This document shows positions 18,641 through 54,640 of a DNA stretch of 64,000 nucleotides, one piece after another. Positions within the stretch are counted from its first letter, which is position 1, and the number at the start of each line of letters is the position of its first letter. The notes beneath the pieces were generated by a model. The model had not been told where the DNA came from. It saw only the letters and a program-made list of their open reading frames with translations, and did no database searches. The stretch covers positions 14,260,001 to 14,324,000 of the forward strand of contig CM097884.1 in the NCBI GenBank assembly GCA_044892505.1, written 5' to 3'. This DNA comes from Schmidtea nova. Its lineage: Eukaryota. Both the position numbers and the translations under genes were made by a program.

Positions 18641-18989
18641 AAATCGTCGACAATTTAATTCAAATAATTTTTGGGAAAAAGTTAATTAAATAACTAACTT
18701 TATGTTTTTTCAAATTGATGTAAAAAAGATAACCCAGCCAATTCTTGTCCAATTTGTAAATGCAATGTTCAATCAATTCAAAAAATTTATATTCCATAAA
18801 TTGAAGAAAGCTACCAACACCAAAAGTACCATGTTTACAAAAACATTATGTTTGATATTTGTTAATTTAGATAATTTTAAATGTTGTTAGTAAATAGTGT
18901 AGTTGTATTAGCTATATTTAGCTATATTAGTTATATGTATAGTTCTATAAAAGTTGTAATATTTATTTGCATAATTTTTTGTGCATTTT

Positions 18990-34173: not shown

Positions 34174-35183
34174 CACTTTGTGTCATAATTTTGCGTACGG
34201 GTTAAAGAATGTTCTTAGAGGAAATAAAATTTAAAAATATTTCTATTTAACAAAGTTTACATTTAAATAACTTTATTCGAATAAATAAATATACGACATT
34301 TATGAACAGAACAAAATGAGTTCGAATTACAAAGAAATTTTGATTTTAAAATTGCACAATTTTGCGTACGATATAATTATGTATTTTGAAAGAGTTATTA
34401 TTTTAATATTTGATCCTTTTGCCTTGATGTTCTAAAACATCACATATTCGGCTTGGCATAGAATCGTATAGATGCTTAATTGCAAGTCTTTAAGTCTCAT
34501 TGATTGTCGCAACAGCCGAAGTAATTCGAAGCAGCAGTTCCATCCTGTTACGTGGCCGATTTTCCTTGTAGACAAGGTTAGACACCATAGACCAGACATT
34601 TTCAATAATGTTTAAATCTGGACTAAAAGGTGGCCAATTTAGAAGTATCACTCCATTGTCTTCGAAGTTTTTAACGGCATCTTTTGAAACATGTATTGGA
34701 CAATTGTCTTGCTGAAAGATGAAATTTCGACCCATATTCATTTTAATTAAAGGAAAAGCAACTAAGTGCAATATATCCATGTATTTACAGGTGTTTTGTT
34801 TCCCATTCATTAACTTAAAAGTCAGCAGTCCATTGCTCATTATCATTCCTCAGATCATAATTACTGGAGCTCTAAGCACTCGTCTGACATGAAATGGGGA
34901 CTTGTTGCTGTCAATCCAACTAAAATATGAGTCGCATCCATATAGAGTAAAGCGTTTTTGATCAGAAAATACAACGTTATACCAGTCTATATTATCTTTG
35001 ATATGATCTCTGGCAGCTCTAATCCGCTTAAGCCGATATTTCTTCAATAAAGTAAATTTGGATCTGAAAGTTTTGTATTCAAATTTCAGACATTTCAATG
35101 TCCTGGAAATTGTGCTCTTTGAGACATTAAATTTAAATTCTTCGATTATAGATGACGCAGATGATTTAACGCCAACAACATTA
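34174..35183 (-). mobile_element. Tc1-like transposon, 3-prime part (split by the gypsy insertion)
   Basis: VSKSTISRTLK, VVFSDQKRF, FQQDNCPIH, WPPFSPDLNIIENVW; TA-flanked end CACTTTGTGTCATAATTTTGCG. Confidence 0.9.
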
Positions 35184-36048
35184 TGTTGGGTTATTGGTGT
35201 TAAGTCGGTAGTTTCTGACTCCGGTGTTCTCTTTCAATTACAAAATAAACAAGACCCAACACAATAACTTTCTTTATTTGTCAATTGATCACAACTCTTT
35301 TTATCACAAAAAGTTACGCCGGTTCTGCACTCTTCGCGTGAGGGTAGAACACCCAATGGGATATCTCCCTCTCTGACACGCAATAGATTAAGTATAAACT
35401 CTACTTTTGGTTTTCTTTCGACGTCTCCTTCAAATGTCTTCTAACGATTTGATTCACGTTGCCTACTTTTATTCTTCAATCGGTTGGCCTCGAAACTTTG
35501 ACTTTGACCCAATGGCAATTTCGGCACTTTGCTCTCCATTTTTATACCATCTCTGTGTTGTCATTCTGTCGGTGTAATTGGATATTATCGAAGCCGCTCG
35601 CTTGTAATCGGATCTGATTAGCTCTGCTTGGTCGTAACTGGATATTTGTCGTTTATGGTTTTTCCGGCTCCCCCCCGGGGCATTCAATTTAATTTGATAG
35701 TTTAATGGCCTCGCTGATGCCCCGGGTTTCCCACATCGCTCGGATCTCCTACAAGCTCGGGTTTCCCACTAGCTCGGGCTTCCTATAGAATAATTAATTA
35801 TTTTAATTAATTTGTATTTTCCAATTATTTCCTTCTGGGGGTCCCTTTTTATTTTTATATACCCATATTCGAATTCGTCTCGTTGTTTGGTATCCTCCCA
35901 TACCAGTTTCCCCCGCTTAAACTTTATTTTAATTTTTTATAAATTTTTAATTAATGTTTGAACATTAATTATTATTTTTTTCAATTTTATATTTTTATTG
36001 ATTTATGCATTTTTAAATTTATTTTCTGTGATTTTCACAACCCCAACA
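35184..36048 (-). repeat. 3-prime LTR
   Basis: About 3 substitutions versus 50925-51789 by eye. Confidence 0.97.
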
Positions 36049-36050
36049 TA

Positions 36051-36064
36051 TCTCCCCCTTTTTT
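36051..36064 (-). promoter_or_regulatory. Polypurine tract
   Basis: AAAAAAGGGGGAGA, 2 nt before the 3-prime LTR. Confidence 0.9.
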
Positions 36065-37973
36065 AAAGATTCGTCCTCGAATCTACATATACACATATTT
36101 TTGATCATAAATCCTGACAATGATTCTATAATAATAATAGTAATGATAATATCACGAATAATAGTAATAATAAGGATAATTATAGTAATAATTGCAATAA
36201 TACTGGTAGTAATGACAATGACCTAAGTATAATAATGATGATGATAATAGTATTAGTAGTACCACTATAACGATAATAATGGTAGTAATACTATTAATAA
36301 TAGTGATAATACTAGTATAATATTNNNNNNNNNNNNNNNNNNNNNNNNNNNNNNNNNNNNNNNNNNNNNNNNNNNNNNNNNNNNNNNNNNNNNNNNNNNN
36401 NNNNNNNNNNNNNNNNNNNNNNNNNNNNNNNNNNNNNNNNNNNNNNNNNNNNNNNNNNNNNNNNNNNNNNNNNNNNNNNNNNNNNNNNNNNNNNNNNNNN
36501 NNNNNNNNNNNNNNNNNNNNNNNNNNNNNNNNNNNNNNNNNNNNNNNNNNNNNNNNNNNNNNNNNNNNNNNNNNNNNNNNNNNNNNNNNNNNNNNNNNNN
36601 NNNNNNNNNNNNNNNNNNNNNNNNNNNNNNTTTTCAAAATAATTTGTTATTTTAATTTATTAATTTTAATTTAAACTTTAATTCTATAAATTAATTAAGG
36701 AAGGGAAATTGATATTCCAAATAAATTTTATTTTCATTGCCATCTCTTTTAAAGTGACGCTACTTTAATATAAATTATAAAAGAAATGGCCGCCTCAGCT
36801 TCTCAGATATCGCCGCCGCAATAAAAGGCGGTGAACTAGGATTTTTATCATTATTTTATTTCCAAATTTTGTAAGTAAATTTTTTTTGTTTTATTTACTT
36901 TATTAATATAAATTTTATGTTTTTCAATTTTATGTTTTCAATTGAAATTATAATATATTTTTTTATATACATATTTTTATATGTTTTTAAGTCAGATTAT
37001 TAACATGGAAAAACTGCAATGGCTTTATATTCATAACTTTGTTTTATTTATTTTTTTTTTCATCGATGCCATCTACAGGATTGTGTATATGAAAATCAGA
37101 GAATTATTGTTCCGAACAAGTGGAAAATAATACTGAAAAATGAATGCTTTTGCAAAAAGGCTATGTTGTAATCCGAAAAGACAGAGTGATTTGCAAAACA
37201 TGTTGGTAGATATTTATTTTATTTTATTTTTTTTGCATTAAATATATATGATTATAAATAAAAATAGTAATAACAATAAAATATATACTTTTTTAGATAT
37301 CGTTTTACAGGATAATGGTCTGTGTGTATAAGCATGTGTGTGAACGAATGTCGAATCGATAACATTATTCATTAGATAATTATTAATCACGAAAATTGTT
37401 TATGAAGAATTTTTTTTTCTTTTTTTTTTTTCGACTTTATAATTTTGTCATAACTATATTTGGTACTTTAAAATAATGAACCCAATTGACATTCGTTCAA
37501 ATTTAAAAATTGTGAAGTGCATGTTTTACAGAATAATCCTTTTCTTAGTATTATTTCTGTGTGTTTATCTCTATATTTGGAATACTTTATCGGACAAGCG
37601 ATAACTCATCAGAACATTTAGATTATTATGCCAACGATTTACTTTTGCCAATTGAAACAGAAATACAATAATAATAATAGAAATGACAATATTAATAACA
37701 ATAATAATGATAATAATAACAACACCAATNNNNNNNNNNNNNNNNNNNNNNNNNNNNNNNNNNNNNNNNNNNNNNNNNNNNNNNNNNNNNNNNNNNNNNN
37801 NNNNNNNNNNNNNNNNNNNNNNNNNNNNNNNNNNNNNNNNNNNNNNNNNNNNNNNNNNNNNNNNNNNTGTCCAGGAGAGTATGATCCCGGTGATTAAGGG
37901 CTGTTGGTTTTTATTTAGATTTAAAATTGTCATCATATAACAACAATGATACTAACAATAATAATAATAGTAA

Positions 37974-38004
<31 letters not shown>

Positions 38005-38875
38005 GATAATGACCCTAATACTACTAATGATAATAGAGTGATATTCTAATAATGGGATCACAATGTTGATGAATTTAATAATAATTGTCTTCGTCTTATG
38101 CTTTTATGATATTTATGATAATTTCATTTTATTATTATTTTATTCTGTTTTATTTATTTATTTTGTTTTTGCCAATGTTTGTTTTATTGATTCCATCATC
38201 CCTTTGACGATATAATACCAATAATAATCTGATTAATAACTGTAATATAATAATTGACAACTTTCAATCACTACTCAGGGAGATTGATTTAGAGTTTTTT
38301 GTTTTTATTTCGTCCTGAATTTTAATTATTGTATATAATGCTTATAAGGATCGAAATTTTCTTTTGATATCGCACTTATAGTGATCGTATAATGATAGTA
38401 ACATTAACAACAGTAATAATAATAATAATAATATTAATAATAATAATAATAATAACTGCCAACCTCTAATCGCTGTCCAGGAGAGTACACCCCCGGTGAT
38501 TAAAGGTTGTTGGTTTTTATTTAGCTTCAGAATTTTTATTTATTCAATTCTTTTTTGTGTTTTATTTATTTATTAAAATTTTTTTTTTTTTGTTGTTGTG
38601 GGGGTTTGACTGGTGGGCGCCATTTTAACGAACTGAGACAGAATTACTAAATTTATTTATAAATAATCACATATATAATTAATATATTTTTAGTTCATTT
38701 TGATTTCCAGCCGCTTTGCCCCATTTCGATATCTGATAATCGTTTCTTCTTTTTCATACACCACCCCGTTGATGGTCATTGTTTCCCCGACGTCGACGTT
38801 GGATGCTGAAGCTTTCCTTTTGCGATCCTCCTTTTGTTCTATTGGGCCATACTCCATCGATAATTGGATTCTTAT

Positions 38876-40138
38876 TTATTTTATGGATTCTATCCATTCG
38901 CAATTCTCTTCAATCTCCTCTAAATACATTTCAGTTGCCCATTTCAACTTTTGAATACTCTTTTCTGTTCCTGTATCTATTTCATCCACTTCCATGTTTG
39001 TCTCGTCTACGACCATTATCGTTCTTTCCGATCTGGGAATTTCAGATATTGATTCCATATGTTGTCTAGTTTTATACTCTTGCAATGAATACTTTTTTGA
39101 TGGCCCTATCTTAGGCATTGATATATCATCGATCCAAAGGTTTTCTAGTCCCAAATATATCTTCCGAATGCTTTTGACGTCCTCTAAAGCTGAGTGAATA
39201 CCCATTTGCATCTCTTCTCCATAGAGTTCCTTCATTATGGTTTTGAGCTTATACCATTCCCCTCTTCTTGTCACTCCTTTTAATTGCAACGCTTGAGCAG
39301 TAGCTAGATCCCGTATGCCATAAAGATGATTTACCCATATCCCTAGGAATTGTAATTCTGCATGTAGGTCATGTCCTACGAGTATTTTCCCGATTGTCAG
39401 TTTTTGGATTTCCTTCATCTCTTCGTACTGGTCTTTTTGATTTCGGCTTGCCACCTCCGTTATTCCATGGATGTTTGAGTTGAAATGTTTGAGTCTTCCT
39501 CTAGGTGTTAAGAAGACATTTTTCACAACTTTCCCGTAATAGTTCATAATGGCCACCGCCAAGGGAATCATCTTTCCAGTCATGCTGGTTCCATATTCGG
39601 CATCAATGAACAATATTTTGTTCCGAATTTCTTCTATACCCATTTCCCTCCGAATAAAGGACAATTTTCTTTTTAACATTTCCTTTGTTATTTGTAGGAG
39701 TTCAAGATTTTCTTTCTGCATTGGCTCCTCGCTGGGTACATCATCAATTTCGTTTTTGATCCTTGTTTCCACTACAATTGTGGCATCCTCGTTTGCTGCT
39801 CTTAATATTTTCCCGATTGCTGGCTCCTTGATTTTCCATGACGAAAGTTTTTTGATCTCCCACCATATTTGATCATTTTCGTCTAGAATTTCCACCGTCC
39901 CTCTGATGACGTGGATATAGTATTCGTCTTTATCTGATATTTTTAGTTCCTTTGTCATTTGAAATTTTGATTTTCTGTCTATAGTGAATACTTGGACTTT
40001 CATTTTTCTGTCGTCCAACCTTAGATAATTTGGAATTTGCAAATTGTTGACTATCTGGAATCTTCTTTGGCCGGCATGATTTCTCATCATCTTCAGATAG
40101 CTGTCATACGTTTCTCTGGCCCATTGTATCTGCTCCAT
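38876..40138 (-). CDS. 420-aa accessory protein with REX4/ISG20-like DEDDh 3-5 exonuclease domain
   Basis: ExoI ILFIDAE, FNSNIHGIT, ExoII ILVGHDLHAEL, IRDLA, KLKTI...ExoIII HSALEDV. Confidence 0.9.
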   Translation of the reverse strand: MEQIQWARETYDSYLKMMRNHAGQRRFQIVNNLQIPNYLRLDDRKMKVQVFTIDRKSKFQMTKELKISDKDEYYIHVIRGTVEILDENDQIWWEIKKLSSWKIKEPAIGKILRAANEDATIVVETRIKNEIDDVPSEEPMQKENLELLQITKEMLKRKLSFIRREMGIEEIRNKILFIDAEYGTSMTGKMIPLAVAIMNYYGKVVKNVFLTPRGRLKHFNSNIHGITEVASRNQKDQYEEMKEIQKLTIGKILVGHDLHAELQFLGIWVNHLYGIRDLATAQALQLKGVTRRGEWYKLKTIMKELYGEEMQMGIHSALEDVKSIRKIYLGLENLWIDDISMPKIGPSKKYSLQEYKTRQHMESISEIPRSERTIMVVDETNMEVDEIDTGTEKSIQKLKWATEMYLEEIEENCEWIESIK

Positions 40139-40323
40139 TTCTTACAAACGATTATAATTTAAATTTGAATTAATTCAATTTTGACGCTAGGACTAAGATG
40201 GAGTACCCAAAGGATACTGTCTTAGTTGGTAGCGGTATAAATAAAAATATAAAATTACCGATTTAATTGAAGTTTTCTTAGTTATTTGAAATTAATTTAA
40301 ATTTTATGATGTCTAAGTTTACC

Positions 40324-40514: not shown

Positions 40515-43500
40515 CTATACAAACGTCTCCTCGTAATCGATCCAAGGTCTCGGGGCCTCGGATTGATTCGTAGAATGTCTTTCAGTTTTTCGAATTTCAA
40601 AGATGATGACAGATATGAGAATAATGACAAATATTGTTATAATGATAATTGTTATTAATAATGTTACACATAGTAATTCATTTTCCGTAGGTGAGGCTGA
40701 TATAGTTTTATTGCTTGGATTTGACACCTTGATGTGAGCAGTTGTGATTCGCGTTGATTGATTTAACTTTTGTGGGTAACTGTCCATCTCAGTATATGAC
40801 ACTCGAACAAATTTGTCCTCTACCAAGGTTAATTGCCAAAGAGTGGAGTATTTGGCTCGCCGATAATACTTGATTTTTATTAGCACTATTTGAGAGTTTG
40901 ATTTTGACCGTAGTTGTCGGAAAGATAAGATCTTTGATTCATTTCGGTTCTCTAATATTCCTTGTACTTTTCCACAATAGTATAAAACAGCTCTCTGATT
41001 GGGGTACGTTTGACGGGTGACATTTATCGTCTGATCATACACATGAAAGATAACTCTGTTTGTTTCATTGATCAAGTTTATCGTGTGTTGACTGGAATGG
41101 ATTAGAACCCACTGATCGGTGCTGTCTGTTCCATTTTCGTACAACGACTTTTCAAAATATTGTATTTGAATATTATACATCTGAAATAATTTTAAATTAA
41201 CATATTTTATAAATGGTTTTCTGCTGTTCAGTGTATCGATAGCATGATTTTGAAAGACAGTTTTTACTTGCTGGGATTCATGAGAGTTCCAATATACATT
41301 AATTCCATTGATTACTGGTTCAATGGATACGCGGTCTTGTAGTCTTTTTGTCCATACATTGACACGTATTAGATCATGGACTCTTGTAAAATTATCTTTA
41401 AGATTTACTCGTGTTATTATCCAAGGGTATTTATAATTCATTGCTAATTCACGCGCGACATGTGTATTTTTGTTATAGTTTAATTTTACTGGGGGCTCGA
41501 AATAGTTCAGCAGATTATTTATCTCTATTTCTTCCGTCGCTTCGCAATAATAGATCCATACTATTTGGGTACATGTTGAATACACATCGATATTTTCTAA
41601 TAATGGGACTTTCTTCATTGCATATGCTGGGAATGTTCGTATTGCCGACGCACACAAAACATTGATCATCATCACTGTTGTTATCAACAACGTTTTACTT
41701 AGGTAGTTTAATTGAGTAGGGTTTTTTGTAAATTTTTGTTTAATTACTTTCTCTTTTTCGCCGTTACTTGGTTTTGACCTCAAGGGATATCTTTCTTCCA
41801 GCGGAACTTTCTTACATCGGTTTACATGAATGACAATCGTTCCCGCCTTTTTATTATTTTGTGGACGCAATTTTAAATTCGTCTCGGTTGTATCACACAC
41901 CAAATAAGGTCCTTTAAATGGTCGCTGTAGTTTGGTAGACAGCCCTTTCGTTGGCTCTGGTTTATTTATGTACACCAAATCTCCAACTTTAATATCATGT
42001 GCATGCGCACGTTTATCATAGCATTCTTTATATGCTTCTTGATTATGCCTTATTTTCAATCCCGCTTTGACCCATACTGATTGCAGTCTTTCCTGCATTA
42101 CTACTTTGTAATCGGATACGTCCATGTATTGTGAGATTGGTGGTTGAAACTTTAAGTCAATCGGCATATTGTTTCGTCGTAGGTACATAAGATAAAATGG
42201 TGTTTCACCGGTGCTTTCATTCACTGCATTTCGATATGCAAACAAACATGGCTTAATGAACAAATCCCAATCTTTTTGTTTCCTGTTTACATAAGACGAA
42301 ATCATGTTAATTAATGTTCCATTAAATCTGTCGACTAACCCATCTGTTTGTGGGTGATATGGGGATGTATTAAGTTTTAGGATTCCGAATAATTCGGTTA
42401 TAGATTTAAATAATTCGCTTTGAAAGTTTGTTCCTTGGTCTGTGAGCAATTTTCTTGGTGCTCCGTACCGAAATATGATGTTTTCTACAAATATTTTCGC
42501 AACAGTTTCTGCCTTTTGATTCTGCATTGCATATGCTTCCGGCCATTTTGTTAGGTAATCACAAAATACGATGATATATTTATTTCCATTGGTTGTTTCT
42601 GGTAGTGGACCAACAATATCCATTGCTGTCATTTCCATTGGTGCTACCGGCACGGTCATAGGTTTTAAAGGAACTTTTATTTTCCTTCCTGTATTTCGCC
42701 TGGTCAGACAAACTTCACAAGTGTGACACCATTGTCTGACGTCTTGCTCTATCGTGTCCCAGTAATATTTCTGTTTTAATCTTGATAATGTTTTTCGAGC
42801 AGATAAATGTCCTCCCAATGCCCCATCATGATACAACAACAGTAATGCTGTTCGATGTTTTGCCGGTACTACTATTAATAAGTTTTCATTTTTCACACAT
42901 TTCAACAACCCATCATGGATGACGTATTTATGTTTTTCTTCCGCAATGTGCTTCCAGTCACTTTCTCTTTTTATTGTGACAGCATGTTTCCGCAATTGAT
43001 TCAATTCAACATCGTTTTCCTGATCACCCTGTAATTCCTTCATATTATTTGCCGTTTTAATTGCCATAAATATCGTATTTTCATAATTTACTTCATTTTG
43101 AATAATATTTTCTTCAGGGATTCTCGACATTGCGTCCGCATTTCCATTTGACTTCCCCGTACGGTACTTAATTTCAAAATCGTACTCCTGTAATGCAATT
43201 GACCACCTAATCAGCTTGCTTGCCGAATCTCGATGCTTCATTAACCATTGTAATGGGTTATGATCCGTAAATACAATAAACTTTCTCCCAACCAAATATT
43301 GTCGAAAATTAGTTATCCCATATACTAATGCTAGCGTTTCTTTTTCGATTGTGGAATAATTTTTTTCATGTGGTTTTAATGAACGGCTTGCATAAGCAAT
43401 TACGTGATCTTTCTCACCTTCTACTTGCTGTCCAAGTACTGCTCCTAATGCAAAATTGCTTGCATCTGTCATCAGTATAAATGGTTTTTTGAAGTTCGGA

Positions 43501-46500
43501 CATCTCAATATTGGTTGTTTAATAAGACTCTCTTTTAATTTATCAAATGCTTCTTGTTGAGCTGTTACCCATTTGAATTTAGTCTGCTTTTTTAGCAACA
43601 TGTTTAAAGGTTGTGCTACATGCGAAAAATTCCTTATGAATTTCCTATAATAGCTCGCTAATCCAAGAAATTGTCGGACTTGATCCGCATCTTTGGGGAT
43701 CGGATACTTTTTGATCTTTTCTACATTTTCTGGGTTTGGTTGTAACCCTCTCCGTGAAATTATGTGCCCTACGTAAACAACTTCTGATTTTCCCCATTCA
43801 CATTTTGAAGGTTTTATTTTTAAATTGGCTTCTATTAGTCGTTTAAACACTATTTCCACATCTTTTAAGTGTCCCTGAAAATTGTTTGAAAATATTATTA
43901 TATCATCAATATAGACTAATGCATGTGGTATATCACGCAAAACAAAATTCATACCTCTCTGGAATGTAGCTGGTGCTCCCGTTAGACCGAATGGAAGCAC
44001 ATTAAACTCATATAGTCCTTTCCCATCTGAAAATGCCGTTTTTCTCCTGTCTTCCTCTTTGACTTTAAATTTGTTATATCCTTTGTTAAGATCGATTACT
44101 GTGAAGAATTGTACTTCTCCCATCTGATCAAACATTTCTTGCGGAACTGGTATAGGATATGTGTCTTTTCTTGTCACTTGGTTTAATTTCCGATAATCAA
44201 CACAAAATCGTAATTCACCGTCCTTCTTTTTCACTACTACTATTGACGATGAGAATGGTGATGAACTATCTCTTATTATTTTGAATTCCTTCATGGCTTT
44301 AATTTGCCGATCGCTTTCTTCTTGATGTATATATGGAATTCTGTACGGTCGTATTTTTATAGGAGTTTCATCAAGCAATGGTATTTCGTGTTCAATTATC
44401 TGAGTGAGTCCTAGATCATACTCATGTTTCGCGAATGCATTTTTATACCTTTTCAATAATGCCGCAAATTCTTGTCTTTGTGCCTCTGTTAGATCATCAC
44501 TTGTCACTTGTGGTTCTTTATAGATTTTGATATTTCTAGGTAGTTTTTGCACTTCCTCCCCTTTCATTTTTGACAGTTTTCCCAACTTTGTTTTGGGTTT
44601 CATTTGAACAGATTTTGTGCTACAATTAGCTATTCTTACTGGCACGGTTTTGTCTTTAATTTTTACTATTTCGTCACACATAGGTACGTCGTACTTTTCT
44701 ATTAGTTTTTGATTTGGTTCGAATATACACTCTTCTTCGGAAACATTTTCTACATTAGCGTAGTATATCACTTCGCTTTTTGGTGGTACTTCCAACGTTT
44801 GATTTAAAAAGACCTCTCCTGCTTCATGCACTACCTCATCAGTCTGCCTTTTTATTAATTTGCCCGTCTTTAAGTCCAGTGAGATTCCTTGTAATTGTTC
44901 CATGATATCCATGCCAATCAAACATTTGACAGGGCTTTTTCTCATTACTGATACCCAATGAATTACTTCCTGATTTCCTATATTCAACTTTACTTCTAGT
45001 TTTCCAATAATATTTAATACGTTATGCGTCATTGATTTAATAATTTTTGTTGTTGGCTTTATTTTCGCTTTTTCCTGTCTCGTTAAGAAACTCTCCGATA
45101 CTATACTGTGACTCGAGCCTGAATCCAATAACGCTTCCACTTTTCTTTCATTAAACTGTATGGATATTCTAGGTTGTTTTCCTCCAATTTCTATTGTCAT
45201 CAATGCGTAACTACATGGTAACCCAAGCATGTTCTTTCTTTCAATTTCGGCGCTTGATGGCTCAATCTTCTCTAGTTCGATTTTAATCTCATCAACTGGC
45301 TTCATTTCTCTCAACTTCTCACTTGGGTATATTGGAGCTGTTGGTATTAATGTCGGTGTGTACCATTTAGAAAGAGTGTCAATTCCTGTTAATTTTGGCA
45401 TTGGTTCAAGCAAGAACCTGGTTTCGGGTTCTATTCTACTTTTCATTATGCTCCTTCGAAAATTATTTTGCTCTGATCTGCCGCCACCGTTCTCATTATC
45501 AGGACCATTATTTTTATCCTCATGATCGCATAGTGATTCTTCGCTTTTCTGATCATTTCTCAATTGCGCTCGTACATTTGCCATTTCTTTGTATTGATGA
45601 CTTGTAATGAAGAATCTAGCCAAAAATGGAATACAACCAATCATCATTTTCCATGACCATCCGGAAATTGTATATATCCTGTGAGTGGACAATACTTGTG
45701 ATATTATCACCTTTACCGTTACTGCAATTACATAAATACCAATTAAACCTGCACAGGCTTGTCCCAAAAACATGAATTTTCCCCAAATCTTTTCCATTGT
45801 TTTGTAAGTAGCTCGTTTAAAATGATCAGGTGTCAGCAAGTATTCGTAGTTAACTTTCCCTTCTCCATTCGGCAATATGGTATCAATCATTTCTGAAATC
45901 ACGCGTTCCTTTTTTGACGGAAATAACAAATTTCTTTGGGCTTCTTCGATGTCTTCGCTCGCATACAAACCCATTTGTGCCATTTTATTCATTGATGTAA
46001 AATTTATTAAGTATTCCAAATTCGTCAATTCCAATTTATCTGGTGTTCTTACTCCTCGGTAATCTGGTAGCGCTATCCATGAATCTTGTGCTAAGCGATA
46101 TAATGGGGCTAATAATCGATTACATTGCAAGGTTTTTGGTTTAACTTGTTCCCCCAGCAGTATTCGGGTTATCGGTTCCATAAATCGTAGTTTCCCGCCA
46201 ACACTTACTGGCAATTCATTTGTACATTTCTCGTATTTTACTATTTTCACTGTAATTTCTTTGCATCGGTAACTGTACAGCGCTTCTCCAAAGATTCTAG
46301 CAAATACACCATTTTCTGAAATTAGCATGGGTGCTACTAAATTCGGGTTTGTAACCGCCATCGCCATTCGATTTCGAAGTATTTCTTTATTCAATTTACA
46401 ATCGTTCAAGATCATTTCTCTATATATGTTCTCCATGGTATTTTGGCTAAAATGAAATAAATAATCAATTTTATTATTAAAATAATGAGTTAGTTTTATA

Positions 46501-47462
46501 TCATCCCTGTGAATTCTCGTCTTCGCTTCATGTACAGTCGTTTTTGCCACATATACTCCTTTGTAATTTGTTACATAGACTGTTTGACCACATTTGCTCG
46601 TTATCTCCTTTTTAATAAAGCGCATGCTGTCCGTTGGCAAGGTTGACATTAAAACCGTCGCTGTTTGTCTTGTCCACAGTGGAATTGACCTTACTGTGCC
46701 ATTTTGTTTATAATTCATATTAAAGTTGTCTGGTCTCTCCCTAAATTGCTCTCCGGTTAACTCTTTGAAATTCATTGTTTTTAAATGAGCCAGGTTACAT
46801 ATATTGGTTTTAACATCGTAAACGAGGATTGACTCTCCCGTGTGACAACTAGTTTGCTTCATATTACAAAATGGATGAGTTTGTAGTTTTCCGGTATCAT
46901 CATCAAAAGATCCTTCGAACATTCTCAATTCGGTTAAGTATCCCTCTATTACCACTGTGTGTTTAATTATTTTCTCATTTATTTTATACGGTTCACCTTC
47001 ACAGTCACCGTCTGATTTCATCACTACCTTCACCACTAATGTTTCTCGAATTTGATGATTTAATTTCGCTTTTAATCGAATTTCAGGGCTGATTTTTAAT
47101 TCCCCCGTTTGGAAGGCTGTTAAGCAATTTTCCGGCAATACATCCACCGGTCGTGGAATGGCGTGCATTTTGATTAATGACGTATGGCTCCATTTACCAC
47201 AGAAGAATACAAAAGTGGTTCGTTTTACAATGCATTCTCTAACTTTGGTACGCCGTAAATCTGACTCTTGATTGACATAGTATTTTATTTCGTTTTCAAT
47301 CTTTAATTTTCGAGGGTATGCGTCTGGGCACTCTGACATATCAACCACTGAGTAAATTTTCCACATTTCGGTTTGTGAACAATCGTATGCCACCAATGAC
47401 GTCGTTTGTGCAATAACTGCACATAGAATAATCATCATGAACATTATCCAAGGGAATATCAT
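40515..47462 (-). CDS. env-pol: Env1-PR-RT-RNaseH-IN-Env2 polyprotein, 2315 aa
   Basis: Signal peptide + AYDC glycoprotein + TM; LLDSGS protease; YIDD RT; TDAS/EKE/TDH RNase H; HHCC + D,D integrase and GPY; second signal peptide, N-glycosylated ectodomain and C-terminal TM. Confidence 0.95.
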   Translation of the reverse strand: MIFPWIMFMMIILCAVIAQTTSLVAYDCSQTEMWKIYSVVDMSECPDAYPRKLKIENEIKYYVNQESDLRRTKVRECIVKRTTFVFFCGKWSHTSLIKMHAIPRPVDVLPENCLTAFQTGELKISPEIRLKAKLNHQIRETLVVKVVMKSDGDCEGEPYKINEKIIKHTVVIEGYLTELRMFEGSFDDDTGKLQTHPFCNMKQTSCHTGESILVYDVKTNICNLAHLKTMNFKELTGEQFRERPDNFNMNYKQNGTVRSIPLWTRQTATVLMSTLPTDSMRFIKKEITSKCGQTVYVTNYKGVYVAKTTVHEAKTRIHRDDIKLTHYFNNKIDYLFHFSQNTMENIYREMILNDCKLNKEILRNRMAMAVTNPNLVAPMLISENGVFARIFGEALYSYRCKEITVKIVKYEKCTNELPVSVGGKLRFMEPITRILLGEQVKPKTLQCNRLLAPLYRLAQDSWIALPDYRGVRTPDKLELTNLEYLINFTSMNKMAQMGLYASEDIEEAQRNLLFPSKKERVISEMIDTILPNGEGKVNYEYLLTPDHFKRATYKTMEKIWGKFMFLGQACAGLIGIYVIAVTVKVIISQVLSTHRIYTISGWSWKMMIGCIPFLARFFITSHQYKEMANVRAQLRNDQKSEESLCDHEDKNNGPDNENGGGRSEQNNFRRSIMKSRIEPETRFLLEPMPKLTGIDTLSKWYTPTLIPTAPIYPSEKLREMKPVDEIKIELEKIEPSSAEIERKNMLGLPCSYALMTIEIGGKQPRISIQFNERKVEALLDSGSSHSIVSESFLTRQEKAKIKPTTKIIKSMTHNVLNIIGKLEVKLNIGNQEVIHWVSVMRKSPVKCLIGMDIMEQLQGISLDLKTGKLIKRQTDEVVHEAGEVFLNQTLEVPPKSEVIYYANVENVSEEECIFEPNQKLIEKYDVPMCDEIVKIKDKTVPVRIANCSTKSVQMKPKTKLGKLSKMKGEEVQKLPRNIKIYKEPQVTSDDLTEAQRQEFAALLKRYKNAFAKHEYDLGLTQIIEHEIPLLDETPIKIRPYRIPYIHQEESDRQIKAMKEFKIIRDSSSPFSSSIVVVKKKDGELRFCVDYRKLNQVTRKDTYPIPVPQEMFDQMGEVQFFTVIDLNKGYNKFKVKEEDRRKTAFSDGKGLYEFNVLPFGLTGAPATFQRGMNFVLRDIPHALVYIDDIIIFSNNFQGHLKDVEIVFKRLIEANLKIKPSKCEWGKSEVVYVGHIISRRGLQPNPENVEKIKKYPIPKDADQVRQFLGLASYYRKFIRNFSHVAQPLNMLLKKQTKFKWVTAQQEAFDKLKESLIKQPILRCPNFKKPFILMTDASNFALGAVLGQQVEGEKDHVIAYASRSLKPHEKNYSTIEKETLALVYGITNFRQYLVGRKFIVFTDHNPLQWLMKHRDSASKLIRWSIALQEYDFEIKYRTGKSNGNADAMSRIPEENIIQNEVNYENTIFMAIKTANNMKELQGDQENDVELNQLRKHAVTIKRESDWKHIAEEKHKYVIHDGLLKCVKNENLLIVVPAKHRTALLLLYHDGALGGHLSARKTLSRLKQKYYWDTIEQDVRQWCHTCEVCLTRRNTGRKIKVPLKPMTVPVAPMEMTAMDIVGPLPETTNGNKYIIVFCDYLTKWPEAYAMQNQKAETVAKIFVENIIFRYGAPRKLLTDQGTNFQSELFKSITELFGILKLNTSPYHPQTDGLVDRFNGTLINMISSYVNRKQKDWDLFIKPCLFAYRNAVNESTGETPFYLMYLRRNNMPIDLKFQPPISQYMDVSDYKVVMQERLQSVWVKAGLKIRHNQEAYKECYDKRAHAHDIKVGDLVYINKPEPTKGLSTKLQRPFKGPYLVCDTTETNLKLRPQNNKKAGTIVIHVNRCKKVPLEERYPLRSKPSNGEKEKVIKQKFTKNPTQLNYLSKTLLITTVMMINVLCASAIRTFPAYAMKKVPLLENIDVYSTCTQIVWIYYCEATEEIEINNLLNYFEPPVKLNYNKNTHVARELAMNYKYPWIITRVNLKDNFTRVHDLIRVNVWTKRLQDRVSIEPVINGINVYWNSHESQQVKTVFQNHAIDTLNSRKPFIKYVNLKLFQMYNIQIQYFEKSLYENGTDSTDQWVLIHSSQHTINLINETNRVIFHVYDQTINVTRQTYPNQRAVLYYCGKVQGILENRNESKILSFRQLRSKSNSQIVLIKIKYYRRAKYSTLWQLTLVEDKFVRVSYTEMDSYPQKLNQSTRITTAHIKVSNPSNKTISASPTENELLCVTLLITIIIITIFVIILISVIIFEIRKTERHSTNQSEAPRPWIDYEETFV

Positions 47463-47564
47463 CGTCTTCCTTAGTTTTGGACTTACTCTTCCGTTTAATT
47501 GCCTTTGCGGTGCATCGTTTTCCGGTTTCTTTCTTTTCTTTATTATCGATAAATTTAATGTTTT

Positions 47565-50500
47565 CTACCCTCCACGCTCTCTCAGCCAATTACTTAAAGA
47601 CTCATTTATTAGTCGAGCCGCAATGTCAATTAACTTATCAAGCTTGTCTGACTTTGTAAATGCATGAATACTGATCTCTGAAACAACGTAGGTTAGAATT
47701 ATTAGCACTACTTCTTTATCGATCCCATTTTCGATCAACTTTTCTATTACTTCACAGTTACAAAAGCTATCCTCTTTGCCCAATTTCCGCACTACTCCTG
47801 GAAGTCTGATTTTCACTTCATCTACTATTCCTTTCAATTCCTCTTCCGTTTCTGTCTCTATTTTTAGGATTGGGTATACGACTCCAACCAAATTTCTTAT
47901 TACGTCACTTGTTTCTTCAACTTCCTGCTCTAATTTTACTAAGGTTTTCTTCATCTCATACAATGTTCTAGTCTTCGTATTCGCACTTTTTATTTCACCT
48001 TTTTCGATATTCGTATCTTCAATAACTGCCATTTCTGCTGTCTGAGCATTATTATTAACCCTCTTTTCCCCCTTATAATCATCAGTAACTATTTCAATTT
48101 CGCTTTCCTTTATTTCTTCTGTTTGCTCATCTGTGTCTGAAAATTCAACTTTGTCAAGCATCCTCGAATTATATTCTTTATTTGCGATTATGCGATTTAT
48201 CAAATACCCTTGACTTCCATTAGTACTTAAATACCCATATTCATCCAGTTCCTGTGGCACACATCCGTAGTCATATAAATATTCATCGTCATCCAATTCT
48301 TCCCCTTTATATCTCAGCACTATAATTCCATCTTTACCTAACATTTCCGCAGCTCTTTTACGCACTTTTCGAACTTTCGTACACCAGTGTTCCTCTACAT
48401 ACTCAGTTTTCCCAATATCTTCATATTCTATTGCAATTGTTAACGAATTTAACTCAACTCTATCTTTTCTAAGCTCTTTACCCAATTTTCTCATTATTCT
48501 CTTTAAACATTGTCTATATCCCGTTCTTCTAAACAAACAGGGTCGTATCGCATTAGCAAGTTCTAATTTTTCCTTTTGCCCAAATTCAGATTCCTCTATT
48601 AATTTTACTATTTCTTTAATTTCGTTTTCGTCACCAATACATAAAACATCATTTAGCTCCTTTACTATTTGCATCGGATCACTTCTTGTCATTTCACTGT
48701 TACTCATCATACTGGCTATTTGTAATTCATTTTTGTTCCCTGGTATAAGACCACAATCTATTAAATATTCATCATTTTCTAAATCTCTATTTTTAAACTT
48801 TAATTCGACTACCCAGCCTTCACATTTCTCTCTTAGTCTCCTTTTTAAATCTTTTACGCGATCATAGGCTTCACAACGACAAGTAATCACATTTTTATCA
48901 TTTTCATTAACAACATCAATAGAAATAAAATCTAACCATTTATTTTCTCGAAACGCTTTCCCAAATTTTCTCATCAATTCTTTAATTTCTTCTCTATTTG
49001 TTACATTTATTTGATAATAATTAGCACACAAATTAATCACGCCTTTCAATTTTCTCATACTTAACGACATTTGACTCAGGCTTTTAACCGATACCAATAT
49101 TTTAGATGATTCTTCCACGCTAGCTTCTAGTAATTTCTCAAGTCTTTTCATCATCATGGTAGCCTTTTCGCTTTCCAAATCGTCTTTTGTACACCCAGTT
49201 GTCGTGTCAGCTTCTGTCATGTCTTGCTGCGATCCATACATCATGTGATTATCCAATTCATCATCAGATTCAAACTTGGACATTAAACGATCTAAACGTC
49301 GACCCATTTCTTTCACTTGGTTTTCAATCTTTTCATTGAAATCATCTGATTGAACAAAAGCCACGTTGTCTGTCTGCAGTTTATCATTTTGAAATCTTAT
49401 TGATTTTTTTAATATAGGTTTCTGAAATTTGTCGACATTCCTCGGGCATGATCTAGCCATGTGTCCATACCCTCTACATGAATGACATTGAATTTGACCT
49501 TGAAGGTTCACTCTATCTCTTTGTGGGGATGGCGAAGTTGATGGAGACCTCGATCTAGCAAAACAATTCCGAGAGACATGTCCTTTCCTTCCACAATTGT
49601 AACATTGCACATTATCGTTATTACGCTGATCATTAAAATTTAGTTTATTGAAACTTTTCTCACCATTACCCTTCAACCAATCTGGCCACATTCGTTTTGG
49701 GCTTCGTTGAACGTTGTTTTTAGACCAGCATTGATTGCTGTTATGTCCCATCCTTTGACAATAATCACACTGAATTGGAGTTGGACTTTTTGGAGACCTA
49801 TTTTTGAACCAACATTGATTAACATGATGTCCTATTCGTTGGCAATGGCTGCATTGAATTGGCCTCTCTTTTTCATCAATTTGAACATTTGTTGATTTAT
49901 TTGGCTCAAATCTTTGTCTAAACGTTGGTGATGGACTAATTGATTGCTGAAGCCGATTGTTTTTGACTGGAGTTATGGACCGTTCTCTGGGTTCATTGAT
50001 GATGGCAAACGATTCTGATTTTGGCTGTGAACTTTTCAGATTTAACTCAATTTTCATCGCCTTTTTGATTAACTCATCAAAGTTATTGAAGTCCACATAA
50101 CATAATGCCTTTTTGATCTCCTTTTTGACTCCCGTTAAGAACTGGTCTTGTAGCAATTCTTTCACCTGCTTTGCCACTTCAATCTGTTCCGGCTTTACTT
50201 CGAATGCTTTCTCTGCAAGAGTAGTCAAGTGGTACGCAAATTCACTTACCGATTCCTCTGATTTTTGCACTCGATTATAGAACTTCTGCCGCATTATCCG
50301 TTTTATATCCCCTCCAATTAGTTTCGCGGCTAAGGCATCTTTCAATTTCGTCCAGTCATTCGCAATTGTTCTTTTGTCAATTTGTTGCCAGGCTTCTCTC
50401 GCTGCTCCCTTCAGATATAGTGGCAATCTTTGCACCATTGTCGCTTGGCTCCATCCATAGGCTGTGGCGTACATGTAGTAATCCGCCATAAAATCAACGA

Positions 50501-50648
50501 ATTCCACTGGATCACCGCCATACTGATTTACTGGCAGTTTCTGGCAGCTAGCATAGTCATTGCCATTGCCGTTGCTGGTGGACATGGGCGTATCATCCTG
50601 ATTGTTTGTATTACTCATTTTTGTTTCTGGTTGTTTATTACTTCTCAA
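47565..50648 (-). CDS. gag: Gag, 1027 aa, with 4 CCHC knuckles and an extended C-terminus with two ubiquitin-like domains
   Basis: Capsid-like LPLYLKGAAREAW...Q...ESVSEF...FLTG; four CX2CX4HX4C at 49450-49856; Ubl-like repeats at 48718-48930 and 48245-48450. Confidence 0.92.
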   Translation of the reverse strand: MRSNKQPETKMSNTNNQDDTPMSTSNGNGNDYASCQKLPVNQYGGDPVEFVDFMADYYMYATAYGWSQATMVQRLPLYLKGAAREAWQQIDKRTIANDWTKLKDALAAKLIGGDIKRIMRQKFYNRVQKSEESVSEFAYHLTTLAEKAFEVKPEQIEVAKQVKELLQDQFLTGVKKEIKKALCYVDFNNFDELIKKAMKIELNLKSSQPKSESFAIINEPRERSITPVKNNRLQQSISPSPTFRQRFEPNKSTNVQIDEKERPIQCSHCQRIGHHVNQCWFKNRSPKSPTPIQCDYCQRMGHNSNQCWSKNNVQRSPKRMWPDWLKGNGEKSFNKLNFNDQRNNDNVQCYNCGRKGHVSRNCFARSRSPSTSPSPQRDRVNLQGQIQCHSCRGYGHMARSCPRNVDKFQKPILKKSIRFQNDKLQTDNVAFVQSDDFNEKIENQVKEMGRRLDRLMSKFESDDELDNHMMYGSQQDMTEADTTTGCTKDDLESEKATMMMKRLEKLLEASVEESSKILVSVKSLSQMSLSMRKLKGVINLCANYYQINVTNREEIKELMRKFGKAFRENKWLDFISIDVVNENDKNVITCRCEAYDRVKDLKRRLREKCEGWVVELKFKNRDLENDEYLIDCGLIPGNKNELQIASMMSNSEMTRSDPMQIVKELNDVLCIGDENEIKEIVKLIEESEFGQKEKLELANAIRPCLFRRTGYRQCLKRIMRKLGKELRKDRVELNSLTIAIEYEDIGKTEYVEEHWCTKVRKVRKRAAEMLGKDGIIVLRYKGEELDDDEYLYDYGCVPQELDEYGYLSTNGSQGYLINRIIANKEYNSRMLDKVEFSDTDEQTEEIKESEIEIVTDDYKGEKRVNNNAQTAEMAVIEDTNIEKGEIKSANTKTRTLYEMKKTLVKLEQEVEETSDVIRNLVGVVYPILKIETETEEELKGIVDEVKIRLPGVVRKLGKEDSFCNCEVIEKLIENGIDKEVVLIILTYVVSEISIHAFTKSDKLDKLIDIAARLINESLSNWLRERGG

Positions 50649-50924: not shown

Positions 50925-51789
50925 TGTTGGGTTATTGGTGTTAAGTCGGTAGTTTCTGACTCCGGTGTTCTCTTTCAATTACAAAATAAACAAGACCCAA
51001 CACAATAACTTTCTTTATTTGTCAATTGATCACAACTCTTTTTATCACAAAAAGTTACGCCGGTTCTGCACTCTTCGCGTGAGGGTAGAACACCCAATGG
51101 GATATCTCCCTCTCTGACACGCAATAGATTAAGTATAAACTCTACTTTTGGTTTTCTTTCGACGTCTCCTTCAAATGTCTTCTAACGATTTGATTCACGT
51201 TGCCTACTTTTATTCTTCAATCGGTTGGCCTCGAAACTTTGACTTTGACCCAATGGCAATTTCGGCACTTTGCTCTCCGTTTTTATACCATCTCTGTGTT
51301 GTCATTCTGTCGGTGTAATTGGATATTATCGAAGCCGCTCGCTTGTAATCGGATCTGATTAGCTCTGCTTGGTCGTAACTGGATATTTGTCGTTTATGGT
51401 TTTTCCGGCTCCCCCCCGGGGCATTCAATTTAATTTGATAGTTTAATGGCCTCGCTGATGCCCCGGGTTTCCCACATCGCTCGGATCTCCTACAAGCTCG
51501 GGTTTCCCACTAGCTCGGGCTTCCTATAGAAAAATTAATTATTTTAATTAATTTGTATTTTCCAATTATTTCCTTCTGGGGGTCCCTTTTTATTTTTATA
51601 TACCCATATTCGAATTCGTCTCGTTGTTTGGTATCCTCCCATACCAGTTTCCCCCGCTTAAACTTTATTTTAATTTTTTATAAATTTTTAATTAATGTTT
51701 GAACATTAATTATTATTTTTTTCAATTTTATATTTTTATTGATTTATGCAATTTTAAATTTATTTTCTGTGATTTTCACAACCCCAACA
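50925..51789 (-). repeat. 5-prime LTR (TATAAAA at 51281-51287, AATAAA at 51014-51019)
   Basis: Near-identical to 35184-36048; followed by the PBS. Confidence 0.97.
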
Positions 51790-52739: not shown

Positions 52740-54640
52740 AGTCACGCCCACAACCCCACTCAATCCACCATGTACAACAACGATTCTATCGCCACTCCCC
52801 CATCATATGTCCTAACGCGCTTTAACCACAAAACACGCCAAATCCCCATTTTCACGGATTTGCACACCGATATCGATTAATAGGATTAATAGGAATGCTT
52901 TTTACATGACGTACAATGGTTTCCCACTTTCTTCACCACTTTCACCCACTTTCATTTCCCACTTTCATCAACCACCAATGCTATCATAGAAATTCATTGC
53001 CGCGTTTTAGGAGGCGTTCGGCCCCCTACAGAACCGTCTTATTCATCCACTTCACGCCCAATTTTGTTCTTTTTGGGTCCCGACGGCACACCCTCGTTGT
53101 GGTTCCACATTTTCGAATGGCGCACGTCTTCCTTCCAGAAATCACGAGCCGATTACTTTCTTGACAGTTTACCCGCTGAGTTGATAGCCGAGCTTGCTCA
53201 GAAAATATCAGATGCCCTTTATTCTGATAGCCCATACGAGAACTTAAAAGGACTCATAGTAACCAAATACACCACATCGCAAACCCAAGCCCTACAAAAA
53301 TTATTAGCCCCACAACGTTACTCGGGCGAACAACCGAGCCAACGCGGCCATACCTGGACTCTCCAAAATTTTACACCTATTGACACACCAATTCCTTTCT
53401 GCACTGCCCCACCACCTACAAACTTCGCTTGCATTGTTCGACTCCGTAGACCCATATCATCTAGCAAAAATAGCTGACCGCATTTACGCATTTCAACCCC
53501 ACAAACCGCGCACTGATAATTACACACCACCACAACCATCTCCCATTGTTAACGCAACACATAAACCTGAAAACCACTACGCTAGCAACGTTGAAAGATA
53601 TCCCAACCATACACCGCCATTACATCTAGTACAACATCCCAACCGTCCACCGGCAACACGAGCACGTACAACCTAGTTACAACGCACCACTAATTTGCTA
53701 TTTCCACAGCCGATTTTGAAAACATGCACAGAAATGCTGCATTTGTTGCACTTCCGAATTACACAATTCTCATAACCCAGTCATTCCAATCTGTATCCAC
53801 CACCACCTGTTCAAGAACGAAGCCAAATTGTGCATCGAAGGATGAACATGGCACACCAGCAGTCACCACCATGCAAAAAATTAACTGAGTCATCGGATAT
53901 TCCTAGACGCTCCGATGACTTCCTGACAGTGAACACCTCTTCTCACAGCAAACCACGTCCAACGTACACAATATCAACTCCGCCAGTAAGCACCATCTCA
54001 GAAACAACCGCTACTCTCTCCACAGTACTATTTTCTCACACGACACCACCACCATAGCAATACAAGCACCAACACTAAAACAAGAACCAACCAGCACACC
54101 TTGCACAACACTAGCAACAACACCAACAACATTACCCGACACACCACACAGAGCACCATCCGCATCACTATCAGCAGCAACATTCACAAATTCCACAACT
54201 AACAATACCAGAAGCACAGCTCACATTTTCTGACGACGAAACCCGCACAAACTACACACACATTCTAGCACAGCCTCCACAAACCACATCTCCATCTCCA
54301 CTGTCAGCAACACTAACTACACCACTTTTAAACAGAATCCCTGGAAATTTCACCATCAACACCCAACTGTTCGAAGAATACGGTCAACCCAAACAACGCA
54401 CAATAACATTCCTCGCAGATACAGACTCGTCATATTCAATCCTACCCACCACCTTCACCGCAGACACACCCTGCTCATCCTCTGCCATTGCCGCGAAAAG
54501 TACACATATAAAGCTATCTGGTGCAAAAACAATCAAGTTTCGCCTCCCAAGTTTTTTTACTCCGATCCCTGAATCCGGTTTTGCATTACCCAAACGCTCC
54601 GCGTACTTCGGCGGGGGCTATTCTAGTGCCTCCGTCATAT
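52740..54640 (+). mobile_element. Truncated CsRn1/Kabuki-like Ty3/gypsy element (gag + protease)
   Basis: PSLWFHIFE, YENLKGLI...QKLL...GEQPSQ, LP..LQ..LA...LAKIADRI, CYFHSRF.KHAQKC, FLADTDSSYSILP; frameshifted. Confidence 0.8.

What the first reader, a model, noticed from the sequence alone, without database searches (positions are those of the whole stretch)
45312..45344. Adjacent PTAP and YPx3L late-domain motifs between the Env TM and the protease
Seen: ...LIPTAPIYPSEKL... in the predicted cytosolic linker. Known: PTAP binds TSG101 and YPx(n)L binds ALIX, the same pair as in HIV-1 p6. Inference: the element buds through ESCRT, with the late domains on the Env tail or Pol leader rather than on Gag. 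This supports real extracellular particles.
Basis: partly seen in the sequence, partly recalled or inferred. Interest (0 to 1): 0.7.

Follow-up and report, generated by a model that had tools for sequence, protein, structure and literature searches.

The report
Budding signals on retroelement envelope tail
An animal retrovirus-like jumping gene carries the two short signals that HIV uses to bud from cells, but on the inner tail of its envelope protein; one of the two recurs at that place across related elements and chuviruses, which suggests how they leave cells, although no binding or particle has been shown.

Summary
Observation confirmed: 45344-45312 (- strand) encodes PTAPIYPSEKL, in a disordered linker between the transmembrane helix of a gB/chuvirus-type Env and the protease of a young 16.6-kb Ty3/gypsy Gag-Env-Pol element. 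The adjacent pair arose in about 1 of 200,000 linker shuffles. The two motifs fare differently in relatives. Hydrophobic-Tyr-Pro is in 13 of 18 protease-fused relatives (1.3 expected) and 57 of 104 stand-alone glycoprotein tails (4.0 expected), named chuviruses among them, mostly in the ALIX spacings YPx1L/YPx3L; Tyr motifs without Pro are not enriched. PT/SAP is in only 1 of 18 close relatives but 18 of 104 distant tails (1.3 expected). Best reading (0.65): the Env tail is the late domain, with an ALIX site kept family-wide and a TSG101 site gained and lost. 'Rather than on Gag' is too strong: the family makes one polyprotein, and Gag carries conserved ubiquitin-like domains. Binding, expression and particles are not shown. 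Rivals: endosomal sorting of Env, a Tyr-Pro protease site, adaptor sorting. Element type known; the tail late domain was not found in the papers searched. New variant of a known kind; interest 0.6.

The parts
45333..45344 (-). PTAP, candidate TSG101 (ESCRT-I) site; lineage-labile
   Evidence: 1 of 18 close relatives, 18 of 104 stand-alone tails
45312..45332 (-). IYPSEKL, hydrophobic-YPx3L, candidate ALIX V-domain site; family-conserved
45168..45584 (-). Env cytosolic tail / linker to protease (residues 661-799), disordered from about residue 671
   Evidence: pLDDT < 50 over model residues 618-742; highest 19-residue hydropathy 0.63
45600..45653 (-). second, weakly hydrophobic amphipathic helix after the TM (residues 638-655); read as membrane-surface helix, not a second TM
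   Evidence: hydropathy at most 1.07, hydrophobic moment 0.48; inference
45702..45758 (-). Env transmembrane helix (residues 603-621)
   Evidence: hydropathy 2.33; long helix in model
45780..47405 (-). Env ectodomain, class III fusogen of the chuvirus / herpes gB type
   Evidence: PF24664 E 1.6e-85; Foldseek: herpes gB E 2.6e-15, chu-like glycoproteins E 1.4e-45
47406..47465 (-). Env signal sequence (internal signal in the one-protein form)
   Evidence: hydropathy 2.45
47565..50618 (-). gag: capsid-like domain, four CCHC knuckles (49446-49853), two ubiquitin-like domains; ends in a stop in frame with env that appears private to this copy
48252..48446 (-). ubiquitin-like domain 2 in Gag (domain 1 at about 48741-48929)
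47859..47879 (-). VYPILKI in Gag, a YPx1L-like match not shared by 12 of 13 related Gag parts
44886..45179 (-). aspartic protease
   Evidence: PF13975, PF00077
42351..44234 (-). reverse transcriptase, RNase H, integrase (order PR-RT-RH-IN)
40515..41696 (-). post-integrase membrane segment (hydrophobic stretches at 41640-41696 and 40602-40658), unknown function
   Evidence: only weak atlas leads 0.83-0.89
38876..40141 (-). DEDDh-type exonuclease frame inside the element
   Evidence: PF00929 E 7.8e-07
50925..51789 (-). 5' LTR, 865 bp, TG...CA; primer-binding site at 50920-50903 (tRNA-Trp-like, recalled)
35184..36048 (-). 3' LTR, 3 differences from the 5' LTR; polypurine tract just upstream; 4-bp target-site duplication on both flanks

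Best explanation
The cytosolic tail of the element's gB-type Env is its late domain. The family is made as one Gag-Env-Pol protein: Gag stays cytosolic, an internal signal threads Env into the ER, the TM returns the chain to the cytosol, and the disordered linker plus Pol hang below the membrane. Env trimers at the budding membrane display hydrophobic-YPx1/3L, which binds the ALIX V domain and so ESCRT-III; in this element an abutting PTAP adds a TSG101/ESCRT-I site. ESCRT cuts the neck and releases an enveloped particle; Pol is packaged by its tether to Env and freed by the protease. The ALIX site came with the glycoprotein family (it is also in chuvirus G tails); the TSG101 site is gained and lost. 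Shown: sequence, position, disorder, fold, family enrichment, spacing. Inferred: topology, partners, budding.
For: Motif pair far above chance in place. [LIVM]YP in 13 of 18 protease-fused relatives (shuffle mean 1.34, max 7 in 3000) and 57 of 104 stand-alone tails (4.04, max 11 in 1000); PT/SAP 18 of 104 (1.33); both 13 of 104 (0.13); PT/SAP then YP within 6 residues 4 of 104 (0.04). Controls not enriched: PY, YxP, FP, Y[^P]x-hydrophobic; equal-length ectodomain windows give 0.61 of 17 and 2.69 of 105. Spacing: in 15 fused sites L/I at Y+3 in 9, at Y+4 in 0; of 6 lacking it at Y+3, 4 have a hydrophobe at Y+5 (stand-alone 6 of 10), the YPX1/3L pattern of ALIX sites (pattern named in 10.1101/2022.04.26.489493). 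A named chuvirus tail reads PTAPLYPSNKV, nearly the same layout. Linker disordered and non-hydrophobic. Gag and Env in one frame in 10 of 23 relatives examined and in L001. 12 of 13 related Gag parts lack PT/SAP, [LIVM]YP and PPxY. PTAP-TSG101 and YPXnL-ALIX: PMC8402826, PMC7923801.
Against: No binding, expression or particle evidence. PT/SAP in only 1 of 18 close relatives; 2 of 18 lack any YP and 6 of 18 lack YPx1/3[LI]. 37 of 104 stand-alone tails lack YP. The YPx1L majority form is also a YxxPhi adaptor motif. The spacing test was post hoc, small and uncorrected. Relatives are kin (the 18 plus the query form one clade), so counts are not independent events. A second hydrophobic helix follows the TM and no topology predictor was on hand. 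The Gag parts examined are often incomplete (367-1364 aa). This copy has a stop between gag and env.
Confidence: 0.65

Rival explanations
1. The motifs do bind ALIX/TSG101 but sort Env into multivesicular bodies (turnover or exosome-like release) rather than cut the neck of an infectious particle.
For: Same sequence evidence fits; ESCRT acts on cellular cargo too (PMC7923801 abstract). No particle data here.
Against: Enrichment in named chuviruses, which must bud and have an NP-G-RdRp genome (PMC7642597); intact class III fusogen fold.
Confidence: 0.13
2. Tyr-Pro is mainly a type 1 (aromatic-Pro) cleavage site by which the element's protease frees Pol from the Env tail; the late-domain look is secondary. 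Dual use is possible.
For: Type 1 sites are aromatic-Pro (PMC3185560). Pol must be cut from Env somewhere in this linker. In 2 of 15 fused sites the Tyr is 30-32 residues before the catalytic Asp, about a protease N-terminus (recalled).
Against: Distance varies 30-91 residues, 68 in this element; FP is not enriched (2 of 18, 2.33 expected); the same motif is enriched in stand-alone tails, including RNA viruses with no such protease; the Y+3/Y+5 hydrophobe and PT/SAP are not explained.
Confidence: 0.09
3. The motif is a tyrosine-based adaptor (AP-2/AP-1) endocytosis or sorting signal, as in many viral glycoprotein tails (recalled).
For: YPx[LIVM] fits YxxPhi: 43 of 57 stand-alone and 9 of 15 fused sites have a hydrophobe at Y+3.
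Against: This element's own motif has Glu at Y+3 and so is not YxxPhi; Y[^P]x-hydrophobic is at chance (12 of 18 vs 11.4; 25 of 104 vs 26.1); sites without Y+3 shift to Y+5; PT/SAP co-enrichment points to ESCRT.
Confidence: 0.08
4. Chance or relic: short motifs in a Pro-rich disordered linker with no present role, ESCRT being reached from Gag (zinc knuckles, ubiquitin-like domains) or not at all. Likelier for PTAP alone (about 0.25) than for the Tyr motif.
For: YPx1/3L is expected 0.85 times by chance in the whole protein; PTAP absent from 17 of 18 close relatives; Gag has ubiquitin-like domains and fused ubiquitin can drive budding (PMC2958808 abstract).
Against: Composition-preserving shuffles never reached the observed counts; motif kept while the linker diverged beyond alignment.
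Confidence: 0.05

Closest known systems
GAG-ENV-POL errantiviruses with HSV/gB-type Env of nematodes, bryozoans and flatworms (PMC13524379; Sacco et al. 2022 as cited there, not read)
   Same: Ty3/gypsy Pol, LTRs, gene order, gB-type Env, multi-copy and recent
   Different: That paper analyses ectodomains; 'ESCRT', 'late domain', 'budding', 'cytoplasmic' and 'fused' occur 0 times in its main text. This element also has ubiquitin-like domains in Gag, a post-integrase membrane segment and an exonuclease frame. Host phylum not determined.
Chuvirus (Jingchuvirales) glycoproteins and Anakin BEL/Pao elements (PMC7642597, PMC10084718)
   Same: Same glycoprotein family (PF24664; 17-21% identity in the best structural matches); tails share hydrophobic-YP and often PT/SAP
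   Different: There the tail ends the protein (median 16 residues from Tyr to the end); here it runs on into Pol. Neither paper mentions late domains or ESCRT.
HIV-1 p6 PTAP + LYPXnL, EIAV p9 YPDL, MLV PSAP/LYPAL/PPPY late domains (PMC8402826, PMC7923801)
   Same: Same two motif classes, just upstream of the protease, in a disordered spacer
   Different: Those are on Gag or matrix proteins; this is on a fusogen tail, the motifs abut, and function is untested
Hartmanivirus GP2 tail and hantavirus Gn tail as matrix surrogates (PMC6261641)
   Same: Idea that a glycoprotein tail recruits ESCRT where no matrix protein exists
   Different: Speculated there, through a different (ALG-2-type) motif and an unrelated class of glycoprotein

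Membership tests
Ty3/gypsy LTR retrotransposon | Paired LTRs (TG...CA), target-site duplication, PBS and PPT | tested here: met
   865-bp LTRs with 3 differences, 4-bp duplication, PBS, PPT
Ty3/gypsy LTR retrotransposon | Pol order PR-RT-RH-IN with catalytic motifs | tested here: met
   Pfam; DSGS, YIDD. BEL/Pao shares this order (recalled)
Ty3/gypsy LTR retrotransposon | RT phylogeny inside Ty3/gypsy | not tested
GAG-ENV-POL HSV/gB-type errantivirus (PMC13524379) | gB-type Env ectodomain between signal and TM | tested here: met
   PF24664; model pLDDT 81; top PDB matches all herpes gB
GAG-ENV-POL HSV/gB-type errantivirus (PMC13524379) | Gene order gag-env-pol inside LTRs | tested here: met
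GAG-ENV-POL HSV/gB-type errantivirus (PMC13524379) | Belongs to one of the published host-associated clades | not testable with these tools
   Supplement 1 lists names and coordinates; the sequences could not be fetched; the paper says the arrangement is not monophyletic
YPXnL (ALIX) late domain | Hydrophobic-Y-P-x(1 or 3)-L | tested here: met
   IYPSEKL; family spacing
YPXnL (ALIX) late domain | Accessible cytosolic site on a structural protein | tested here: met
   Disordered, no hydrophobic stretch between it and PR/RT; side of membrane inferred, not measured
YPXnL (ALIX) late domain | Conserved in relatives | tested here: met
   YP 16 of 18, [LIVM]YP 13 of 18, YPx1/3[LI] 12 of 18
YPXnL (ALIX) late domain | Binds ALIX V domain; mutation blocks release | not testable with these tools
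P(T/S)AP (TSG101) late domain | Exact PT/SAP in an accessible region | tested here: met
P(T/S)AP (TSG101) late domain | Conserved in close relatives | tested here: not met
   1 of 18; enriched only in the wider family, 18 of 104, scattered on the tree
P(T/S)AP (TSG101) late domain | Binds TSG101 UEV; mutation impairs release | not testable with these tools
   bench test
YxxPhi adaptor sorting signal | Bulky hydrophobe at Y+3 | tested here: not met
   Glu at Y+3 in this element; met in many relatives
Type 1 retroviral protease site | Aromatic-Pro at a domain boundary | tested here: inconclusive
   Tyr-Pro present; 68 residues before the Asp, 30-91 in relatives

The most novel reading that the evidence does not exclude
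Chu-type class III fusogens carry their own late domain: an ALIX site (plus an optional TSG101 site) in the cytosolic tail that travels with the gene between negative-strand RNA viruses and retroelements. In this clade a single Gag-Env-Pol protein buds from its Env tail, packages Pol by the Env tether, and may use Gag's built-in ubiquitin-like domains as a second ESCRT handle.
Probability: 0.35. Interest if true: 0.8.

Novelty: new variant of a known kind. Interest (0 to 1): 0.6.

Why it matters
How chuviruses (NP-G-RdRp genomes, PMC7642597; no matrix gene, recalled) and gB-carrying errantiviruses leave cells is unknown; PMC13524379 says transmission through env remains elusive for most elements. 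A conserved ESCRT motif on the glycoprotein tail gives one testable answer for both, explains why capturing this one gene could give a retrotransposon both entry and exit, and would be a clear case of late domains on a fusogen instead of Gag or matrix.

Tried and rejected
No host genome is held, so copies, TSG101 and ALIX of the host could not be examined. A search with the TM-linker-protease stretch for longer proteins found one unrelated chimeric hit without the linker: no relative above about 45% identity with a linker was found; closer ones (58-77%) are ectodomain fragments. Viral contigs gave no relative; metagenome contigs gave 2 loci. No RNA holder listed. Laid contigs: no difference inside 45312-45344 among the 40 rows shown, but 1487 rows were hidden, so conservation among copies is untested. 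First counts had misassigned rows (P0004, P0082, P0054, L001, L002) and are superseded. PPxY and dileucine motifs are not enriched. The slower tree did not finish; FastTree was used. The atlas did not place the host or the post-integrase segment. No complex was predicted: no ALIX or TSG101 sequence was available. A programmed read-through of the gag stop was considered and set aside because the stop appears private to this copy. A lumenal linker was rejected because it would put RT and IN in the lumen. Earlier-findings look-ups were empty. Sacco et al. 2022 is not held and may discuss these tails.

Full report
1. What is there. Window 45344-45312 (- strand) encodes PTAPIYPSEKL, residues 741-751 of a 2349-aa frame. 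It lies in a 16.6-kb LTR element, 51789-35184: two 865-bp LTRs that differ at 3 places, a 4-bp target-site duplication, primer-binding site and polypurine tract. The order is gag (four CCHC knuckles), then in the same frame a signal stretch, a Monjiviricetes fusion glycoprotein (PF24664, E 1.6e-85), a TM helix, a 139-aa linker, protease, RT, RNase H, integrase, a further membrane segment, and a separate exonuclease frame. The Env model (pLDDT 81, 95 sequences) matches herpes gB in the PDB and chu-like glycoproteins among viral models. GAG-ENV-POL Ty3/gypsy elements with gB-type Env are published for nematodes, bryozoans and flatworms (PMC13524379), so the element type is known. The host is an AT-rich animal genome by inference (Es2, MATH, Tc3-like remnants); no genome is held.

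2. Chance. In the linker, shuffles gave PT/SAP 0.43%, YPx1/3L 4.2% and the adjacent pair 1 in 200,000; over 3400 residues 0.85 YPx1/3L are expected, so that motif alone proves little. The test is conservation.

3. Conservation. From 154 proteins of two searches, cluster members and two metagenome loci I kept those in which a TM-region profile reached the TM. Dropped: near-duplicates (P0002, P0155-P0163), one chimera (P0054), four with no tail (P0009, P0014, P0083, P0130) and fragments without the TM. That left 18 relatives with Env fused to a protease and 104 stand-alone tails. Fused: YP 16 of 18 (shuffle mean 5.75, max 12), [LIVM]YP 13 (1.34, max 7), [LIVM]YPx1/3[LI] 10 (0.36, max 4), PT/SAP 1 (0.06). 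Stand-alone: [LIVM]YP 57 of 104 (4.04), strict form 39 (0.71), PT/SAP 18 (1.33), both 13 (0.13), PT/SAP followed within 6 residues by YP 4 (0.04). PY, YxP, FP and Tyr motifs without Pro were at or near chance. The fused linkers otherwise hardly align to the query (1 of 18 clearly above shuffles). The 18 and the query form one clade (support 99, FastTree, 117 rows), so they are not independent; PT/SAP is scattered over the tree. Of ten tails picked for carrying both motifs or YP, 3 are named chuviruses or chu-like viruses, one reading PTAPLYPSNKV. Of ten picked by rank, 3 are named viruses (Tacheng tick virus 4, Wufeng shrew chuvirus 2, Lishi spider virus 1; that the first and last are chuviruses is recalled) and each has YP or PTAP; 2 clusters are insect-genome copies, one without a motif.

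4. Which partner. In 15 fused sites L/I stands at Y+3 in 9 and at Y+4 in none; of the 6 without a Y+3 hydrophobe, 4 have one at Y+5; stand-alone 6 of 10 (post hoc, uncorrected). That is the YPX1/3L pattern of ALIX sites (10.1101/2022.04.26.489493), and this element has the n=3 form, which is not a YxxPhi adaptor signal. Fixed Pro at Y+1 and co-enriched PT/SAP point to ESCRT. A Tyr-Pro protease site (PMC3185560) is a real rival for the fused clade, but the distance to the catalytic Asp varies from 30 to 91 and protease-less RNA viruses share the motif.

5. Topology. The linker is disordered (pLDDT < 50) and has no hydrophobic stretch (max 0.63) before the protease, so it is on the same side as PR, RT and IN, which must be cytosolic. 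A second weak helix after the TM (max 1.07, amphipathic) is read as a surface helix. This is inference.

6. 'Rather than on Gag'. 12 of 13 related Gag parts (several incomplete) have no PT/SAP, [LIVM]YP or PPxY. But this Gag has VYPILKI, and Gag and Env share one frame in 10 of 23 relatives examined and in L001. The stop between them in the window is not shared by nearly all contig depth in 4 of 4 runs of one study, possibly the window's source, so this copy is broken there and the family protein is Gag-Env-Pol. Gag also holds two ubiquitin-like domains conserved in the clade; fused ubiquitin can drive TSG101- and ALIX-dependent budding (PMC2958808). A second ESCRT route on Gag is therefore open.

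7. Mechanism. Most likely (0.65): the Env tail recruits ALIX, here also TSG101, to cut budding particles, with Pol packaged through its tether to Env. Shown: motifs, place, disorder, fold, enrichment, spacing. Inferred: topology, partners, budding. Rivals: ESCRT sorting without infectious egress (0.13), protease site (0.09), adaptor signal (0.08), chance or relic (0.05; about 0.25 for PTAP alone).

8. Novelty. Searches: chuvirus + late domain, 2 papers, neither on this by listing, one checked by passages; invertebrate + retrotransposon + envelope + cytoplasmic tail + PSAP + TSG101, 0 papers; searches listed nothing on these tails by title or abstract start. Term look-ups found no ESCRT or late-domain text in PMC13524379, PMC10084718 or PMC7642597. 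The nearest idea is the speculation on the hartmanivirus GP2 tail (PMC6261641). Most subscription papers, and Sacco et al. 2022, were out of reach. Papers seen: PMC13524379 abstract, first parts of sections 5, 6 and 9, passages, and rows of supplement 1 (other supplements not read); PMC8402826, PMC7923801, PMC6261641, PMC9430581, PMC7642597, PMC3185560 and 10.1101/2022.04.26.489493 passages; PMC10084718 term search only; PMC2958808 abstract.

9. Verdict. New variant of a known kind; interest 0.6.

Noticed in passing
window 48252-48446 and about 48741-48929 (-): Two ubiquitin-like domains in the C-terminal half of Gag; one copy recurs in related Gags (9 aligned). Profile hits ISG15 and ubiquitin (E about 1e-6); model pLDDT 71 matches ubiquitin folds (rmsd about 1.8, prob 1.00, but E only 0.002). 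Could be an ESCRT handle or a decoy.
   Followed up: partly
window 47565-47567: The stop between gag and env is not shared by nearly all contig depth in 4 of 4 runs (one study): this young copy is broken there, and the family encodes one protein of about 3400 aa.
   Followed up: partly
P0001, P0004, P0007, P0162, L001, L002: Relatives carry 2-4 aspartic-protease-like domains, some after integrase; this element has one.
   Followed up: no
window 40515-41696 (-): Membrane segment after integrase with signal-like and TM stretches and many N-glycosylation sequons: a possible second surface protein; relatives P0001/P0002 have an analogous but unalignable one. Only weak FN3-like leads.
   Followed up: partly
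window 38876-40141 (-): DEDDh exonuclease frame inside the LTRs; this copy differs from nearly all laid contigs by a small indel just upstream of it.
   Followed up: no
window 34490-35183 (-): The element sits in a Tc3/mariner-type transposase remnant (HTH and DDE_3 hits).
   Followed up: partly
window 29068-30309 (-): Host Es2 (ESS2) splicing-factor gene in one open frame.
   Followed up: no
window 18119-18685 (-) and 52893-53477 (+): MATH-domain exon and a DUF7041 frame.
   Followed up: no
window 36050-38870: About 2.8 kb AT-rich, AAT-repeat-rich 3' region with two assembly gaps inside the element.
   Followed up: no
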